This document shows positions 35,954-42,979 of a stretch of 64,000 nucleotides of DNA, in pieces (the first letter of the stretch is position 1; each line of letters opens with the position of its first letter). Location of the stretch: positions 15,516-79,515 of the forward strand of contig CAZELA010000003.1 of the NCBI GenBank assembly GCA_964512835.1. Reading direction: 5' to 3'. Below the pieces are notes generated by a model. That model searched no databases and was not told the origin of the DNA. It saw nothing but the letters and a program-made list of their open reading frames with translations. Source of the DNA: an uncultured Candidatus Saccharibacteria bacterium. Lineage in GTDB: Bacteria; Patescibacteriota; Minisyncoccia; Phycocordibacterales; UBA2100. The position numbers and the translations under genes were made by a program.

Positions 35954-36006
35954 GCGGTGAGTATACGCGCAGCGCCTTGCGCGCGGCAAATAGGTATACT
36001 GCCCCC

Positions 36007-36597
36007 ATGGATCCGGCTGCACTTATCGATATTCTTCTCACGTATCGTTACTGGGTACTTCTGCCGCTCGCTATCGTCGAAGGACCGATGCTCGCATTCG
36101 CATGCGGTGTTCTCATCTCGCTCGGATACCTGTCAGCGCCACTGACGCTGATCATCCTTGTCATCGGAGACATCATCCCCGACACCATCTTCTATACTCT
36201 CGGACGATTCTGGAGCGACCGGCCGTTCGTGAAGCGGTTGGCGGCACGCATCGGTGTTACCGACGGACATTTTACCGACGCACAGTCGCTCTGGCACGAA
36301 CATCCGGGCAAGACCATGCTCATGAGTAAGTTCGCCTACGGCATATCGTCGGCGTTCCTGTTTATGGCCGGACTCATGCGAATGTCTGCGAGTCGGTTCT
36401 ACGGGTACTCCGTCTCGATATCATTCGCTCATTACATAGTCATCATGACCGCAGGTTTCTACTTCGGGGCGTCACTCATCGCAGCCGGCGAGATCGTCCG
36501 CATCATTGAATACGGCATCGCGGGACTCGCGGTACTTATATCCGCATATGTCACGATCATGTGGTACATGCGAAAATCGTTCCCCTCGCTTCCCTAG
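36007..36597 (+). CDS. DedA/VTT-domain (SNARE-associated) membrane protein
   Basis: 'LPLAIVEGPMLAFACGVL' motif and ~200-aa 4-5 TM architecture. Start set at MDPAAL. Confidence 0.75.
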   Translation: MDPAALIDILLTYRYWVLLPLAIVEGPMLAFACGVLISLGYLSAPLTLIILVIGDIIPDTIFYTLGRFWSDRPFVKRLAARIGVTDGHFTDAQSLWHEHPGKTMLMSKFAYGISSAFLFMAGLMRMSASRFYGYSVSISFAHYIVIMTAGFYFGASLIAAGEIVRIIEYGIAGLAVLISAYVTIMWYMRKSFPSLP

Positions 36598-36611
36598 CAT
36601 TACGAACCCGT

Positions 36612-37742
36612 ATGAAAATTGCGATCTGTACCGATATGTATGCGCCCCAGCTCGGAGGCGTCGCGGATTCAGTGCTGCTTCAGGCGCGCGGTCTGCGCGC
36701 ACTCGGTCATGATGTACACATTTTCGCGGCGCATATGCGCGGCGAAACCCCCGACCCGGAGGTTACGCGATTCCGCTCGGTGGAACTCTTCGGCGGCACG
36801 TTTTGCATCGTCTCGCCGTTCGGGATACGCGGAGCGATACTCGAATACAAACCCGATGTAGTACACGCACACTCCTTCGGAACGATCGGATTGGTCGCCC
36901 GGTATACGGCCAAGAAACACACCATCCCGTCGGTCGCAACTATTCATGGTTCTCCGGTCGATTATTTACATTACTTCGGAATCGACCTAAAACCGTTCAG
37001 GTATCTGGCACTTCGTTTTGTTGCCTGGTTCTTCAGCGGCTTCACCGTTGTGACCGCGGTCTCGTCGCAGTCGATGGATCTCTTGCTGCACGCCGGCTTA
37101 CGCCGTGTACGTACGACCGTTATCTCAAACGCCGTCGACGACCGTTTATTCCGACACGTAGAAGACAAACAGGACCTCCGGGAGCGGATCGGTATAGACC
37201 ATAAGGCCGTGCTCGTATTCGGTCGGCTCGCAAAAGAAAAAAATCTGGACGCCGCTCTCACAATCTTTGCGGATGTGCACAAGCGGACGAACGCATCGCT
37301 CGTCATTGTCGGCGACGGACCGGAACGCGACCATCTGGAGTTACGTGCCCGCACGCTCGGTATCGCCGAACACACGTTCTTTATGGGCCGACTTTCGGGA
37401 GAGAATCTGGTAAGTACGATCAATGCGTGCAGCGTTATGCTCATCACCAGCCGTACCGAAGCTCAGCCGATGACGATTCTCCAGGCAAATTTATGCGGTG
37501 TGCCGGTGGTCGGCGCCCGCGCAGGCGGGATCCCCGAGAGCATCAATGACGAAGTGACCGGTTACGTGGTCGACGGCGACGACCATGGCGCGTTTTCTGA
37601 CCGAATATCTCGCCTCCTTTCAGACACAGAACTCAACGCTTCCATGAGCGCCGAGGCGATCGCGTTCGCTCGGCATCATGAACCTGCGGGGGTGGCACTC
37701 ACATGGGAGCGGCTCTATCGCACACTTCCCGGTGTTCTATAA
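36612..37742 (+). CDS. Glycosyltransferase family 4 (GT-B)
   Basis: N-terminal 'MKIAICTDMYAPQLGGV' and C-terminal 'E(x7)E'-region 'TSRTEAQPMTILQANLCGVPVVGARAGGIPE'. Confidence 0.88.
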   Translation: MKIAICTDMYAPQLGGVADSVLLQARGLRALGHDVHIFAAHMRGETPDPEVTRFRSVELFGGTFCIVSPFGIRGAILEYKPDVVHAHSFGTIGLVARYTAKKHTIPSVATIHGSPVDYLHYFGIDLKPFRYLALRFVAWFFSGFTVVTAVSSQSMDLLLHAGLRRVRTTVISNAVDDRLFRHVEDKQDLRERIGIDHKAVLVFGRLAKEKNLDAALTIFADVHKRTNASLVIVGDGPERDHLELRARTLGIAEHTFFMGRLSGENLVSTINACSVMLITSRTEAQPMTILQANLCGVPVVGARAGGIPESINDEVTGYVVDGDDHGAFSDRISRLLSDTELNASMSAEAIAFARHHEPAGVALTWERLYRTLPGVL

Positions 37743-37751
37743 GAGAGAAAC

Positions 37752-38261
37752 CTATTCGTGCCGATACATCGGTCGAACAAGCATAAGATAGACATTGGCG
37801 AGCAAGAAAAGTATTGCAAGTGTCCATGCCGACGCCTGTGCGCTACCCGTGAGCGCGATGCCGAGAACACAGACACCAAGGAGCGTTCCGGCCAGATCGA
37901 TTGCGATTTTTTTGCGTACCGTGCGATCGTACGGGGTCTTCCCCAGCATGTGCACGTATTTGATAGGTGCAAGTGTGAAAATGACGACCACACAGTACGG
38001 AAACAGAATCGATGTACCGAGCGATACCGCAAGCATCAGATACGAACAAAGGAGTACGCCATCAAGCGCACGCTGAAATAGCGATGCGGGAGTAAATGCA
38101 CTGAAGAAGCGTATTGAGAAATATGTATTCATACAGAGCACTGCGTAAAAGATCGTCTGTGGGACGATGAGGGCCGTATCGGTAGCATGAAAGAGAACGG
38201 ACCACGCACCGCAGGCCGCAAGGCAGTACGTTGCGATAAACGCGCGCATCGTGGGATTCAT
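37752..38261 (-). CDS. Hypothetical polytopic membrane protein (169 aa)
   Basis: 5 predicted TM helices; lies between two glycosyltransferase genes. Confidence 0.5.
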   Translation of the reverse strand: MNPTMRAFIATYCLAACGAWSVLFHATDTALIVPQTIFYAVLCMNTYFSIRFFSAFTPASLFQRALDGVLLCSYLMLAVSLGTSILFPYCVVVIFTLAPIKYVHMLGKTPYDRTVRKKIAIDLAGTLLGVCVLGIALTGSAQASAWTLAILFLLANVYLMLVRPMYRHE

Positions 38262-38270
38262 ACGGTTCGA

Positions 38271-38987
38271 TCAGCGAATATCGGTGTATTGCTGATGGTA
38301 TGGCCGGTCGAACAAAACCGGCCACGCGTAGTTCATAACGTAGTGCATATTCGTGCGGAAATACCCCTCCTTCACGAAACGTCGCGCCGAAGTCAGTCCG
38401 GAAAACCGCATGTTGAAAACCGTCTTTCCCTGTTCGCTCAGTCGTTTCGCCAACGTCATATCCTCACCGTAAAACTGCACGTTCGGATCAAACCCGCCGA
38501 TCGCATTGATCGCAGTTCGCGTGACAATGAAATTACCCCCGAGCACCATATACCCCACCATACGGTACATAACCGGCGCAGTGAGCCACCACCCGACCGC
38601 AAGTGTCGCGTTCCACGCGACATTCGGCGCATCGTAGTAGTACACCGGACCGCTCCACGAAACAGCATCCGGGTACTTTGCTATCAGCGCCGCCGCTTTT
38701 TCGCACCAGTCCGGATCGAGTCTGGAGTCGCCGTCCATGTATGCAACATATGCCGCAGTAGTTGATTCAAGGCCGGTCTGTCTCGCCCGTGTAAGACCCT
38801 TGCGATGTTCACTGACGACGCGCACCCCTGCGTACTGCGAAGCAATCGCGCCCGTACCGTCGGTGGATGCATTATCGACCACCACAATCTCCTTGAACCT
38901 CCCGCGCCCGTATGTAAGGACGGACTCTAGGCAGGGTCCGATGAACTCTTTTTCGTTGTGCGCCGGTATCACGAGTGCGATCTCCAT
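38271..38987 (-). CDS. Glycosyltransferase family 2 (polyprenyl-phosphate sugar synthase-like)
   Basis: 'VIPAHNE', 'VVDNASTDGT', 'MDGDS' (DxD) GT-A motifs. Confidence 0.88.
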   Translation of the reverse strand: MEIALVIPAHNEKEFIGPCLESVLTYGRGRFKEIVVVDNASTDGTGAIASQYAGVRVVSEHRKGLTRARQTGLESTTAAYVAYMDGDSRLDPDWCEKAAALIAKYPDAVSWSGPVYYYDAPNVAWNATLAVGWWLTAPVMYRMVGYMVLGGNFIVTRTAINAIGGFDPNVQFYGEDMTLAKRLSEQGKTVFNMRFSGLTSARRFVKEGYFRTNMHYVMNYAWPVLFDRPYHQQYTDIR

Positions 38988-39002
38988 ACCGTCATTCGAT
39001 AT

Positions 39003-41498
39003 TTAATAATCGTAGAAGTGGTCGATCTGTATTCCCTTGCGTGCAAGCGCTCGGTACACGTCGGCAAGATCCTGCACGTCAGCCTCGACCGTAACCCGGT
39101 CCTTGAGGACGTCTGTTCCATCGATGACCGATACAATCTCCGTGTCGCGCATGATTTCGCGCACCCGCTCGGGCGGCACTGCACCGACGGCATCTCGATA
39201 CGTGAACGTGATCGAATCGTTCCCGGATATGTCCTCGACGGCGAACCGTGCGTTCAGCCTCTCTTCGTCGAGGACCTCGAGAAGGCGTACGGTGAACGAA
39301 TGATAATGCGGGGCAGAGATGAGTTCGCTATGAACACCGTCTCGAGAAATGATTGCATAGACAACATCGTCCTGTACGCCGAACTTTGCATGGGTTGCTG
39401 CCCGGATGAGTGCCGCGTACACAGCCTTGATCCCATATTCGAGCGTCAGAAATGACTTTCGCTCGACGCGACGGATATTTTGTCCGACGGTGTAATCACG
39501 ATCTGCCTGCACGCGCCACAAGTCTTTCAGGTATCTTGCGTACGGGAAGTCGTACCACGGGTACGGATAAATGAAGTCCGCATACGCGCGTGCGGCATGT
39601 GCGGCAAACTCGTCTTCGGGCACACGGGTGTTCCCCGCCAGCCTTTCCGACAGTCGGCCGAGCGTACTCTCGTATAGATTCTTCACCGCATTCTCCACGC
39701 TGAAACTCCATCCGATGACTTGTAGGACGGTGATGTAATCGTCGTTGTTGTGCGGACTGTCAGCAACGAGAGCGGTTACCGCATTGAACTGCCGCCAATA
39801 CTCACGATTCGACGCGGAGTACGGGAAATGCGACGGCAGAGAATCACTGAGCACCGTGGCATATTCGTCTGCACTGTAGACGATGTACCACTCCGGTAAT
39901 GACAGGTACGCGTTGTCGTACGGACGATAGTACTCCGGCGTTGTGCTCGCGACCGATCGGATGCGCTGCTTGTCTTTGTAGTAGCGAAGTTTTTCCGGAC
40001 TGTAGTATTTATCCCACAACGAGTTGGTGAACTTATCCGTCGGATCGTACGCGTTCTTAATTTCAAAGTACTGCACCGCATTCGGGTACGCGCGATGCAA
40101 CTGATCGTCGGTCGCCCATGGCTGATACGGCAGGTAATATGTTCCTCCGACCGACAGTACCTCGTCGATCATCTGACGCGTCCACTTCCCTACGTGTTGT
40201 CGCGCAGCTTCGTCGGTCCCTTGCTTGTAATACACGACGAACGCAAAACTTTCGGTGCGCGCCCACGCGAGCTTTGCTCCCGGATCAGGCAACGCGTGAC
40301 GGATTGAGACGTTGAGAATGTTCACGTCGTTGTCTACAAAGACTTTTTTCATTTTGGGTACCCACTCGTCGAACCGCTCAACCGGTACGAAATATTCCTG
40401 GAGCACATACGAGCTGCCTCCACGATCCTTCGGCTCAAGCTCGGCAATATCGTAACTCGCCTCGTAATTGCGGGTATGTATCAGATGTTCCGCATAGATA
40501 TACGGCTCGAGTATGTATTCGCGAATAAGGTTCCCGAACGGCCACTCACTCATAACAACCCACGCAACACGCTCTTTCCAGTAATCCTGTTTACGCGGAA
40601 TGAGTCGGCCGGGAACGGTCGGCGGTCGGTCGGTTTTTGACCAGGTGACGACGGACACGTGTTTGAAGGCCGGCGGATACATGTCGCCGTTCTCGAACAG
40701 AACATCGGGGTTTGAGCGGACGTGGTCATTGAAGTACGCGAGATAGTCTTCGGTATTGATCTTGGTCTGTGCTCGTTCGACATTCACGTTGTCGGCAAGC
40801 TTGAGCGTGACGTCCGTAATGACGCCGATCCCTCCCATGCCGCCGATCGCGCTGTAAAAAATATCCGCATGACTGGTGGGTGAAGCCTCGATCACCGATC
40901 CGTCGGCGAGAACTATTTTGAAACTCTTTACACTGAGAATGATCGGCCCGAGACCGATGTAACGCCCGTGCACATTAACCGAAAGCGACCCGCCGACCGT
41001 GAAATTCGAATACGTCTGCATGATCATGATCGATAATCCGTACGGATCGATCGCGTCCTGGATGTCTCGCCACCGGGCGCCCGCCTGTACAGTCACCTCT
41101 TTGCTCGTCGTAGAGATGTTCAGGATCTTGTTGAACTCGCGCATGTCGATTTGCACCGCTCGGGGCGATGCGGTCTCGCCGCCCATGGAGTTTCGTCCGC
41201 CGCCGATGGAGACGTGGTCATGTGTCCTGACCGCCTCGACGATCTCTTCCGTTGTATGCGGCACGATGATCCCCTGTACATGCACCGGGTACAGCTCCGT
41301 TACGTCGGTGACGATATTCTGCTTTGTGTTTTCTGCTTCGCGCGCAAGTTTATCCGGTGTCGGGTCACCATGCACGCTGACTATCAGAAAAAGCAGTGCC
41401 ACGAACGGAAGCGCCAGGAGCACAGAGACCGCGCTGAGTACGCGCGTTCGGGTTATGTGTCGCGATACGGCGTGCAGGTATGAGCGCAGCCGCGTCAT
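39003..41498 (-). CDS. Membrane-anchored FAD-linked oxidoreductase (PCMH-type FAD_binding_4/ALO-like, ~480 aa) fused to a ~340-aa C-terminal domain of unknown function
   Basis: N-terminal TM; 'HVSIGGGRNSMGGETASP...VQAGARWRDIQDAIDPYGLSIMIMQTYSNFTVGGSLSVNVHGR' FAD-binding domain. I recognise no family for the C-terminal half. Confidence 0.8.
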   Translation of the reverse strand: MTRLRSYLHAVSRHITRTRVLSAVSVLLALPFVALLFLIVSVHGDPTPDKLAREAENTKQNIVTDVTELYPVHVQGIIVPHTTEEIVEAVRTHDHVSIGGGRNSMGGETASPRAVQIDMREFNKILNISTTSKEVTVQAGARWRDIQDAIDPYGLSIMIMQTYSNFTVGGSLSVNVHGRYIGLGPIILSVKSFKIVLADGSVIEASPTSHADIFYSAIGGMGGIGVITDVTLKLADNVNVERAQTKINTEDYLAYFNDHVRSNPDVLFENGDMYPPAFKHVSVVTWSKTDRPPTVPGRLIPRKQDYWKERVAWVVMSEWPFGNLIREYILEPYIYAEHLIHTRNYEASYDIAELEPKDRGGSSYVLQEYFVPVERFDEWVPKMKKVFVDNDVNILNVSIRHALPDPGAKLAWARTESFAFVVYYKQGTDEAARQHVGKWTRQMIDEVLSVGGTYYLPYQPWATDDQLHRAYPNAVQYFEIKNAYDPTDKFTNSLWDKYYSPEKLRYYKDKQRIRSVASTTPEYYRPYDNAYLSLPEWYIVYSADEYATVLSDSLPSHFPYSASNREYWRQFNAVTALVADSPHNNDDYITVLQVIGWSFSVENAVKNLYESTLGRLSERLAGNTRVPEDEFAAHAARAYADFIYPYPWYDFPYARYLKDLWRVQADRDYTVGQNIRRVERKSFLTLEYGIKAVYAALIRAATHAKFGVQDDVVYAIISRDGVHSELISAPHYHSFTVRLLEVLDEERLNARFAVEDISGNDSITFTYRDAVGAVPPERVREIMRDTEIVSVIDGTDVLKDRVTVEADVQDLADVYRALARKGIQIDHFYDY

Positions 41499-41499
41499 G

Positions 41500-41901
41500 C
41501 TATTCGTTCGAAAGCGCGATCTTTTTCACGGAGTAATGAAGCGCGATGGCGACCAGTACGGTAATGCCGATGTGCGGACCGTTGAGGAGAATATTTTGGA
41601 CAATTCCCTGCCCGATCAATACTCCGTATACCACCGTGAACAGCGCATCGAGCGCATAGTACCCGCCGATCGTCATGATGTATTTCACCGTCCATCGCGG
41701 CCCGGCGATGAGCGCAATGACGCCCGCGATACCAGAGATGCCGTGCGTTACATCGTCGATGAGCGAGATTTTGAACAGCCCGAACATGAGCCACTCGTGA
41801 GCAACCGACGTGTCTACGAGCACTCCCGGAACGCGTTCGATCAATACGATTCCGATAAAAAGGGCACTGAGGAATGCGGCCACATATTGTGCGATCTTCA
41901 T
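41500..41901 (-). CDS. Small 4-TM membrane protein (GtrA-like size and topology; family uncertain)
   Basis: 133 aa, four hydrophobic helices, immediately downstream of the FAD oxidase gene. Confidence 0.5.
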   Translation of the reverse strand: MKIAQYVAAFLSALFIGIVLIERVPGVLVDTSVAHEWLMFGLFKISLIDDVTHGISGIAGVIALIAGPRWTVKYIMTIGGYYALDALFTVVYGVLIGQGIVQNILLNGPHIGITVLVAIALHYSVKKIALSNE

Positions 41902-41915
41902 ACAAGTATTCTAGC

Positions 41916-42887
41916 CTACTTATCGAGCGCCTCGGAGAGCGCTGCGTCGAACGCCGTGTAGTCTTCGATCATTGGTATATGGCCGACGTTTTTGAGTGCT
42001 GTGAGTCGGATATCGGGAGTGACCGGTAACAGTGCCTGTGCGCCGGATATGGGAGTCAGCGTGTCTTCCTCGCCCCAGATTACGCGGACCGGGAACGGCA
42101 GTTTCGTATACGATGCGATGTCTGTGCTTTTGTAAACGAGCGGGTCGAGCGTGTAATCGCGAACCCAGTCGGACAACCGCTCCGTCACGTAACGCAGGTT
42201 GAGGTATCGCGTGTAGAGATGTGCGAGATCAGTATCGACATGGTCGGTCAGGTGGACGAACGACCTCAGACGCGAGAGCACGAGCGAGTCGTTGTGAATC
42301 AGAAGCCCGACAACAAACACACGAAGCGGTCCTATCGTAACCGGCGAGAATATCGGGACGTGTTTTTCTTCGCCGATGTTCAATACGGCGTCAATCAGGA
42401 TAAGTTTTTGTACCCGTTCGGGGTAACGCATCGCATACTCGGTCACCGGTCCCCCGCCGTATGAGTGGCCGACAAGAATGACTCGGTCGAATTGTTTTGC
42501 ATCTATAAACGCCTTGATACGGACGGCTTGTGTATCACGAAAATAGTTCCGGTCGGGCGCCGGCGTACTGTAGCCGAACGGAGGAAGGTCGAGTGCAACA
42601 TAATTGTATTGTGTACTTCGAGTATTTTGCACATCGACGACTCGCTGCCAGGTGCCGTTCCACGATGAAAGACCGCCGACGAAAACGACGGTGGTGTCTG
42701 AACCGTTATTGATCTCGCTATACGCATATCGCTCGTCGCCGACCGGAATGAACCGGGTCGTTTGCGGCGCACTGAGGCGCGCAAATTTAGATTCTGTGTA
42801 CGAAACATTATAGGTATACACACACAGGAGTCCGATATACGTCGCAATCAGTATGAACAATGCTGCCCGTATGGCTTTCTTGATCAT
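41916..42887 (-). CDS. Alpha/beta-fold hydrolase with an N-terminal membrane anchor
   Basis: 'ILVGHSYGGG' nucleophile elbow. Start set at MIKKAIRAALFILIA. Confidence 0.8.
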   Translation of the reverse strand: MIKKAIRAALFILIATYIGLLCVYTYNVSYTESKFARLSAPQTTRFIPVGDERYAYSEINNGSDTTVVFVGGLSSWNGTWQRVVDVQNTRSTQYNYVALDLPPFGYSTPAPDRNYFRDTQAVRIKAFIDAKQFDRVILVGHSYGGGPVTEYAMRYPERVQKLILIDAVLNIGEEKHVPIFSPVTIGPLRVFVVGLLIHNDSLVLSRLRSFVHLTDHVDTDLAHLYTRYLNLRYVTERLSDWVRDYTLDPLVYKSTDIASYTKLPFPVRVIWGEEDTLTPISGAQALLPVTPDIRLTALKNVGHIPMIEDYTAFDAALSEALDK

Positions 42888-42923: not shown

Positions 42924-42979
42924 AGTCGTCCGCAAAAATAGAATTTGCAGACGCTGCGCGTCTTTAATTATTTTTGGGC
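42924..42979. repeat. 56-bp direct repeat, copy 1 (contains AGACGC-tgc-GCGTCT hairpin plus T-rich tract)
   Basis: Near-identical to 43117..43172 over the first ~50 nt ('agtcgtccgcaaaaatagaatttgcagacgctgcgcgtctttaattatttttggg'); the two copies diverge at the final ~6 positions ('...gggcagcgc' vs '...gggcgactat'). Confidence 0.85.

What the first reader, a model, noticed from the sequence alone, without database searches (positions are those of the whole stretch)
35977..42887. Envelope glycoconjugate cluster centred on an 831-aa FAD-oxidase fusion with an uncharacterised C-terminal domain
The cluster comprises DedA, GT4, a 5-TM protein, GT2 (polyprenyl-phosphate sugar synthase-like), a membrane-anchored PCMH-type FAD oxidase (ALO/DprE1-like) fused to a ~340-aa unknown domain, a GtrA-sized 4-TM protein and a membrane alpha/beta hydrolase. 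Nearby are PAP2, SIMPL and an ArsR regulator. The combination of GT2, a small 4-TM protein and an FAD oxidase resembles lipid-linked sugar synthesis, flipping and oxidation or epimerisation systems such as DprE1 in arabinan biosynthesis. The fusion partner has no family I can name and may be a novel catalytic or carrier domain.
Basis: inference. Interest (0 to 1): 0.55.

Follow-up and report, generated by a model that had tools for sequence, protein, structure and literature searches.

The report
Exported flavin oxidase with orphan partner domain
The 831-residue protein is a DprE1-like flavin enzyme fused to a widespread, uncharacterised domain with no known relative; its conserved partners are a small membrane protein and a lipase-like hydrolase, not the neighbouring sugar transferases, and its function is untested.

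Summary

The C-terminal domain is not the oxidase cap. It has no Pfam, NCBIfam or PDB sequence match, and no convincing whole-domain PDB fold match despite a pLDDT 95.7 model. It consists of a novel helical bundle plus a small ACT-like subdomain. It forms a family of about 1,700 clusters at 50% identity. It often occurs as a separate, membrane-anchored protein next to a separate FAD oxidase.

The glycoconjugate-cluster reading fails the co-conservation test. GT2, the 5-TM protein, GT4, DedA, PAP2, SIMPL and ArsR adjoin the fusion only in this genus (3 of 88 loci).

The conserved module is a PlaF-like anchored hydrolase, a DUF4383 4-TM protein (not GtrA) and the fusion. Other phyla replace DUF4383 with a Tat-exported methyltransferase-fold protein.

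Signal peptides and signal anchors place the module outside the cytoplasm. My best guess is a DprE1-like oxidation of a membrane-presented alcohol. The substrate is unknown.

The parts
41916..42887 (-). Single-pass membrane-anchored alpha/beta hydrolase, PlaF-like (323 aa from the ATG at 42887; the longest ORF starts at a TTG at 42935)
   Evidence: PF00561 at 1.2e-22. The N-terminus is MIKKAIR followed by a TM helix. The Ser-Asp-His triad motifs HSYGxGP, DTLTP and VGHIPMIED are conserved in 22 orthologues. The only full-length PDB match, which includes the TM region, is 6I8W, the P. aeruginosa PlaF phospholipase A1 (E 8.9e-18; PMC9132575). The gene adjoins the fusion in most CPR loci.
41500..41901 (-). 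133-aa 4-TM protein, a divergent DUF4383
   Evidence: Its own PF14325 hit is E 0.0033. 19 of 25 orthologous neighbours hit PF14325, with a best E of 2.3e-11. Invariant residues are D49, D50, H53, D85, N107, P109 and H110. It sits directly upstream of the fusion, 1 nt away. It is adjacent in nearly all CPR and Gemmatimonadota loci and next to stand-alone C-domain genes. It is fused to the C-domain in P0324.
39003..41498 (-). 831-aa fusion: signal anchor, then DprE1-like FAD oxidase or dehydrogenase, then the orphan C-domain
41373..41441 (-). N-terminal signal-anchor helix (residues ~20-42), preceded by a basic N-terminus
   Evidence: Hydropathy scan. 108 of 114 homologues have an N-terminal hydrophobic helix after a basic stretch. 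Diderm homologues carry cleavable Sec signal peptides instead.
40014..41315 (-). Complete VAO/PCMH flavoenzyme (FAD-binding plus cap domains, residues ~62-495)
   Evidence: PF01565 at residues 75-205. TIGR01678 aligns residues 69-491 to model positions 10-436 of 438. The GGGRNSMGG motif has no His for covalent FAD. DprE1 Lys418 corresponds to invariant Tyr458. GALDH gatekeeper Ala113 corresponds to invariant Gln161.
39381..39998 (-). C-domain helical subdomain (residues ~501-706) with no recognisable relative
39015..39365 (-). C-domain alpha/beta subdomain (residues ~712-828), ACT-like ferredoxin fold, ending in the near-invariant EHxYDY C-terminus
38271..38987 (-). GT2 glycosyltransferase, same strand, 15 bp downstream of the fusion. 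A local neighbour, not part of the conserved module.
   Evidence: PF00535 at 3.1e-30. Found next to the fusion only in L007-L009.
37752..38261 (-). 169-aa multi-TM protein without a family. A local neighbour only.
35977..37742 (+). DedA-like protein (sub-threshold) and GT4 glycosyltransferase, convergent with the operon. Local neighbours only.

Best explanation
**What it is.** The conserved unit is a three-gene module on the minus strand (41916-42887, 41500-41901, 39003-41498). It encodes a PlaF-like single-pass alpha/beta hydrolase, a DUF4383 four-helix membrane protein, and a signal-anchored flavoenzyme fused to an orphan 335-aa domain. It is not the GT-containing cluster. I take all three catalytic parts to sit on the outer face of the cytoplasmic membrane.

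**Shown.**
- The N-terminal half of the fusion is a complete VAO/PCMH enzyme, structurally closest to DprE1. Its FAD-site motifs are conserved, and FAD binding is predicted to be non-covalent.
- The C-domain is an independent evolutionary unit. It is either fused to the oxidase or encoded beside it with its own membrane anchor.
- In different lineages the C-domain is also covalently fused to DUF4383, or lies downstream of a methyltransferase-fold domain.

**Inferred.**
- The oxidase removes two electrons from a C-OH (less likely a C-N) group of a substrate presented at the membrane surface. Candidates are a lipid-linked sugar or polyol, or a lipid head group. This resembles DprE1 acting on decaprenyl-phosphoryl-ribose.
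- The C-domain is an obligatory partner that docks the oxidase to DUF4383, or contributes substrate or ligand binding. Its invariant Glu/Arg/Lys/Tyr/Trp residues, ACT-like subdomain and conserved C-terminal EHxYDY tail suggest this.
- The anchored hydrolase acts on the same lipid pool.
- NAD(P)H is not expected outside the cytoplasm, so the flavin should work in the oxidative direction. The electron acceptor would be O2 or a membrane acceptor.

The substrate is not identified.
For: **Co-occurrence.** DUF4383 adjoins the fusion in nearly all CPR, Gemmatimonadota and Longimicrobium loci. The hydrolase adjoins it in most CPR loci.

**Split forms.** Six contexts were examined.
- A small 4-TM gene precedes the C-domain gene in all six: overlapping its start in L005, L006, L089 and L090, a few bases away in L004, and about 125 bp upstream in L091. 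It is confirmed as DUF4383 in three of them (Pfam hit in L005 and L090; tblastn/cluster match in L006).
- A separate 534-542 aa FAD_binding_4/ALO gene is next to or near it in four of six, and one further contig ends there.

**Fusions.** P0324 is DUF4383::C-domain. P0246 and P0312 are FAD::methyltransferase-fold::C-domain.

**Family size.** The C-domain profile finds 1,710 representatives at E<=1e-3.

**Location.**
- Basic N-terminus plus TM helix in the fusion, in the hydrolase and in stand-alone C-domain proteins.
- Cleavable Sec signal peptides on the fusion in Leptospira, Bdellovibrionota and Proteobacteria.
- Tat signals on the partner methyltransferase-fold protein.

**Hydrolase.** It aligns over its full length, TM helix included, with PlaF (6I8W). 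PlaF's catalytic domain is periplasmic and remodels membrane phospholipids.

**Domain packing.** Full-length model pTM 0.72. The tool does not report inter-domain confidence, so packing of the two halves is not tested.
Against: - No substrate evidence exists.
- All matches to characterised enzyme models are far below the curated cut-offs: DprE1 84 bits against 500, lactone oxidase 88 against 397.
- DprE1's catalytic Lys418 is replaced by Tyr.
- No DprE2-like partner is present.
- In diderm lineages the fusion is soluble (cleaved signal peptide) and lacks DUF4383. A strictly membrane-embedded substrate is therefore not required.
- A Sec-exported FAD enzyme needs a flavin supply outside the cell. 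That is undocumented for CPR bacteria.
- The role of the C-domain is pure inference. I could not inspect model coordinates or inter-domain contacts.
Confidence: 0.45

Rival explanations
1. The whole cluster (GT2, small TM 'flippase', FAD oxidase, GT4, DedA) is one pathway. It makes a polyprenyl-phosphate sugar, flips it, and oxidises or epimerises it as DprE1 does in arabinan synthesis.
For: - In the window, the hydrolase, 4-TM, fusion, GT2 and 5-TM genes lie on one strand with gaps of 14, 1, 15 and 9 bp.
- DprE1 is the top structural and profile match.
- The enzyme is extracytoplasmic, as has been reported for DprE1 (own knowledge).
Against: - The GT2, 5-TM, GT4 and DedA genes adjoin the fusion only in L007-L009, which are the same genus at 85-100% identity. 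They are absent from all other loci searched, more than 70 species.
- The 4-TM protein is DUF4383, not GtrA.
- The GT2 resembles MftF/TIGR04283 models more than PpgS or dolichyl-phosphate hexose transferases, and all hits are sub-threshold.
- No DprE2-like SDR is in the cluster.
- DprE1 Lys418 is not conserved.
- Compact CPR genomes pack unrelated genes tightly.
Confidence: 0.1
2. The enzyme is a periplasmic or surface oxidase for a soluble small molecule such as an aldonolactone, alditol or other polyol. It would resemble ALO/GULO/GALDH or alditol oxidase and yield an ascorbate-like antioxidant, an oxidised sugar or H2O2. The C-domain would be a regulatory, ligand-binding (ACT-like) appendage.
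For: - TIGR01678 aligns over its whole length.
- The PF04030 ALO domain is recorded for several homologues and for split-form oxidases.
- The fusion is soluble and periplasmic in many diderms.
- A lipoprotein MBL-fold, lactonase-like gene follows it in Leptospira.
- The C-terminal subdomain is ACT-like.
Against: - Scores lie far below family cut-offs.
- There is no His for the covalent FAD typical of ALO/GULO/AldO.
- This model does not explain the tight, often translationally coupled link to an integral membrane protein, nor the membrane anchors on each subunit in split systems.
- The lactonase-like neighbour is confined to one genus.
Confidence: 0.15
3. The system is a lipid methylenation-and-reduction system. 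It would resemble BfaB/BfaA (10-methyl fatty acids) or SMT/DWF1 (sterol C-24 alkylation). A methyltransferase adds a methylene group and the PCMH flavoenzyme reduces it.
For: - A 320-340 aa class-I methyltransferase-fold protein adjoins the fusion in 28 loci from many phyla.
- That fold is inserted between the FAD domain and the C-domain in P0246 and P0312.
- The BfaA/BfaB precedent pairs a flavoprotein reductase with a methyltransferase (PMC7791843).
Against: - The methyltransferase-fold partner carries Tat signals, and the fusion carries Sec signals. Both therefore work where SAM and NADPH are not expected.
- The partner is not of the CMAS/cfa family that BfaB and TmpB share.
- It is absent from the 64-kb window (tblastn; the rest of the genome is unseen), and from the CPR and Gemmatimonadota (type A) loci, except one Patescibacteria locus (L081) that is type B.
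Confidence: 0.05

Closest known systems
DprE1 (decaprenylphosphoryl-beta-D-ribose 2'-oxidase, Mycobacterium)
   Different: Sequence identity is only 18%. The NCBIfam DprE1 model scores 84 bits against a cut-off of 500. Catalytic Lys418 is Tyr458 here. There is no DprE2 partner. This protein has an N-terminal anchor or signal peptide and an extra 335-aa domain. Its distribution is outside Actinobacteria.
Aldonolactone and alditol oxidoreductases (GALDH, ALO/GULO, alditol/xylitol oxidase)
   Different: The match is below threshold. There is no covalent-FAD His. The GALDH oxygen gatekeeper Ala113 is an invariant Gln here. This protein is exported or anchored and has conserved membrane partners. 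The C-terminal domain is extra.
PlaF, the single-pass inner-membrane phospholipase A1 of P. aeruginosa (PDB 6I8W)
   Same: The neighbouring hydrolase has the same architecture: a short basic N-terminus, a TM helix, and a catalytic domain of ~320 aa. It aligns over the whole length with matching motifs. PlaF's catalytic domain faces the periplasm (PMC9132575).
   Different: The match is modest (phmmer E 8.9e-18 over the full length; identity not computed), and activity is untested. PlaF is not known to partner with a flavoenzyme.
ACT-domain ligand-binding modules (AHAS regulatory subunits, Rel, NikR C-terminal domain)
   Different: This is a fold-level resemblance only. There is no sequence match. 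The strand order has extra strands. The 210-residue helical subdomain in front has no counterpart.
BfaA/BfaB 10-methyl fatty acid pathway
   Same: It pairs a flavoprotein with a methyltransferase acting on membrane lipids. Engineered fusions of the two work (PMC7791843).
   Different: That pathway acts on the cytoplasmic side and depends on NADPH and SAM, and its methyltransferase is of the cfa family. Here the methyltransferase fold is of a different type, is exported, and is absent from the window.

Membership tests
VAO/PCMH FAD-binding superfamily (PF01565) | FAD_binding_4 domain above Pfam gathering score, plus a cap domain of the VAO fold | tested here: met
DprE1 (NF053785) | Whole-protein score at or above the curated cut-off | tested here: not met
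   84.3 bits against 500.
DprE1 (NF053785) | Catalytic Lys418 in the GGxxYxxKD motif | tested here: not met
   It aligns to GGTYYLPYQ. The Lys position is invariant Tyr458.
DprE1 (NF053785) | Adjacent DprE2-type SDR reductase that completes the epimerisation | tested here: not met
   No SDR is among the genes at 34-45 kb or in the conserved neighbours across loci.
Sugar-1,4-lactone oxidases (TIGR01678 / PF04030 ALO) | Score at or above the cut-off, and the ALO domain detected | tested here: not met
   87.8 bits against 396.8. PF04030 is not detected in the window protein, although it is recorded for some homologues.
Sugar-1,4-lactone oxidases (TIGR01678 / PF04030 ALO) | His for 8-alpha-N-histidyl FAD in the GxGHS motif (own knowledge of ALO/GULO/AldO) | tested here: not met
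   The motif is GGGRNSMGG, with Arg102 invariant.
GtrA-like flippase family (for the 133-aa 4-TM protein) | Match to the GtrA Pfam family | tested here: not met
   None of the 25 orthologues hits GtrA. 19 of 25 hit DUF4383, PF14325.
DUF4383 (PF14325) | Score at or above the gathering threshold | tested here: inconclusive
   The window protein scores 18.1 bits against 27. Orthologues linked to it by tblastn reach E 2.3e-11 or carry precomputed PF14325 hits.
Polyprenyl-phosphate sugar synthases (DPM1/GtrB/ArnC/PpgS-type GT2) | Best match to such a model, at or near its cut-off | tested here: not met
   PpgS 28.9 bits against 370. Dolichyl-phosphate hexose transferase 23.7 bits against 375. The best hits are MftF (79.7 bits) and TIGR04283 (78 bits), also sub-threshold.
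DedA / VTT family (for the 206-aa protein) | Pfam VTT_dom or NCBIfam DedA at or above the cut-off | tested here: inconclusive
   There is no Pfam hit. NCBIfam DedA scores 43 bits against 236 and UptA 28.8 against 250.
PlaF-like single-pass membrane phospholipase A | N-terminal TM helix plus an alpha/beta-hydrolase domain with a Ser-Asp-His triad, homologous over the full length | tested here: met
   Residues 10-308 align to PlaF residues 8-291 at E 8.9e-18. The triad motifs are conserved. Phospholipase activity could not be tested.
BfaA/BfaB-type lipid methylation and reduction | cfa/CMAS-family methyltransferase partner, cytoplasmic-side location | tested here: not met
   The partner methyltransferase fold gives only weak Methyltransf_11/23 hits and carries Tat signals. 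It is absent from the 64-kb window; the rest of the genome is unseen.

The most novel reading that the evidence does not exclude
The FAD oxidase, orphan C-domain, DUF4383 (or the Tat-exported methyltransferase-fold protein) and the PlaF-like lipase may form a previously unrecognised surface-exposed enzyme system that processes membrane lipids or lipid-linked head groups. In lipid-scavenging organisms these could include lipids taken from a host or prey. Such carriers include CPR epibionts, Bdellovibrionota, Micavibrio and fatty-acid-dependent Leptospira. The new-fold C-domain would be the substrate-handling or coupling subunit.
Probability: 0.15. Interest if true: 0.75.

Novelty: new variant of a known kind. 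Interest (0 to 1): 0.55.

Why it matters
The C-domain is a large protein family: about 1,700 clusters at 50% identity, in at least 532 species across more than 10 phyla. It has a confident predicted structure but no name, no Pfam model and no solved relative. It is always tied to a DprE1-like flavoenzyme.

The family is unusually well conserved among CPR bacteria (55-73% identity in the oxidase half). CPR genomes are tiny and their envelope and lipid biology is largely unknown. The whole three-gene module has moved between CPR and a culturable methanotroph.

Extracytoplasmic FAD enzymes and an exported methyltransferase fold raise concrete questions about cofactor supply outside the cell. Culturable carriers make the function directly testable: Methyloglobulus morosus KoM1, Leptospira and Zhongshania isolates, and relatives of the Bdellovibrio lineages seen here as MAGs.

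On current evidence this is still an uncharacterised variant of a known enzyme class, not a demonstrated new mechanism.

Tried and rejected
- **AlphaFold database search: unavailable.** The afdb50 library was not on the machine. HHpred-style profile-profile searches against Pfam were not possible.
- **Re-entrant (PglC-like) anchor: rejected.** The idea was a helix that would keep the domains cytoplasmic. A central Pro occurs in only 6 of 108 fusion anchors. In stand-alone C-domain proteins the Pro sits near the end of the helix. Diderm homologues have plain cleavable signal peptides.
- **BfaA/BfaB or SMT/DWF1 analogy: kept only as a low-probability rival.** The exported location and the methyltransferase type do not fit.
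- **Other recurrent neighbours: lineage-restricted and uninformative.** These were ABC transporter genes, MFS-like genes, and the Leptospira MBL-fold and SDR genes.
- **Literature searches: nothing on this family.** Search terms covered DUF4383, Patescibacteria with FAD-binding oxidoreductase, CPR with lactone oxidase, periplasmic Tat methyltransferase with FAD, and DprE1 homologues in Gram-negatives.
- **Public names of family members: generic only**.
- **Promoter and terminator scan of the operon:** no promoter-like enrichment (1 site against 4.5 expected); terminator-like sites exceeded the shuffle mean (11 against 5.2), most lying inside genes, and I did not pursue them.

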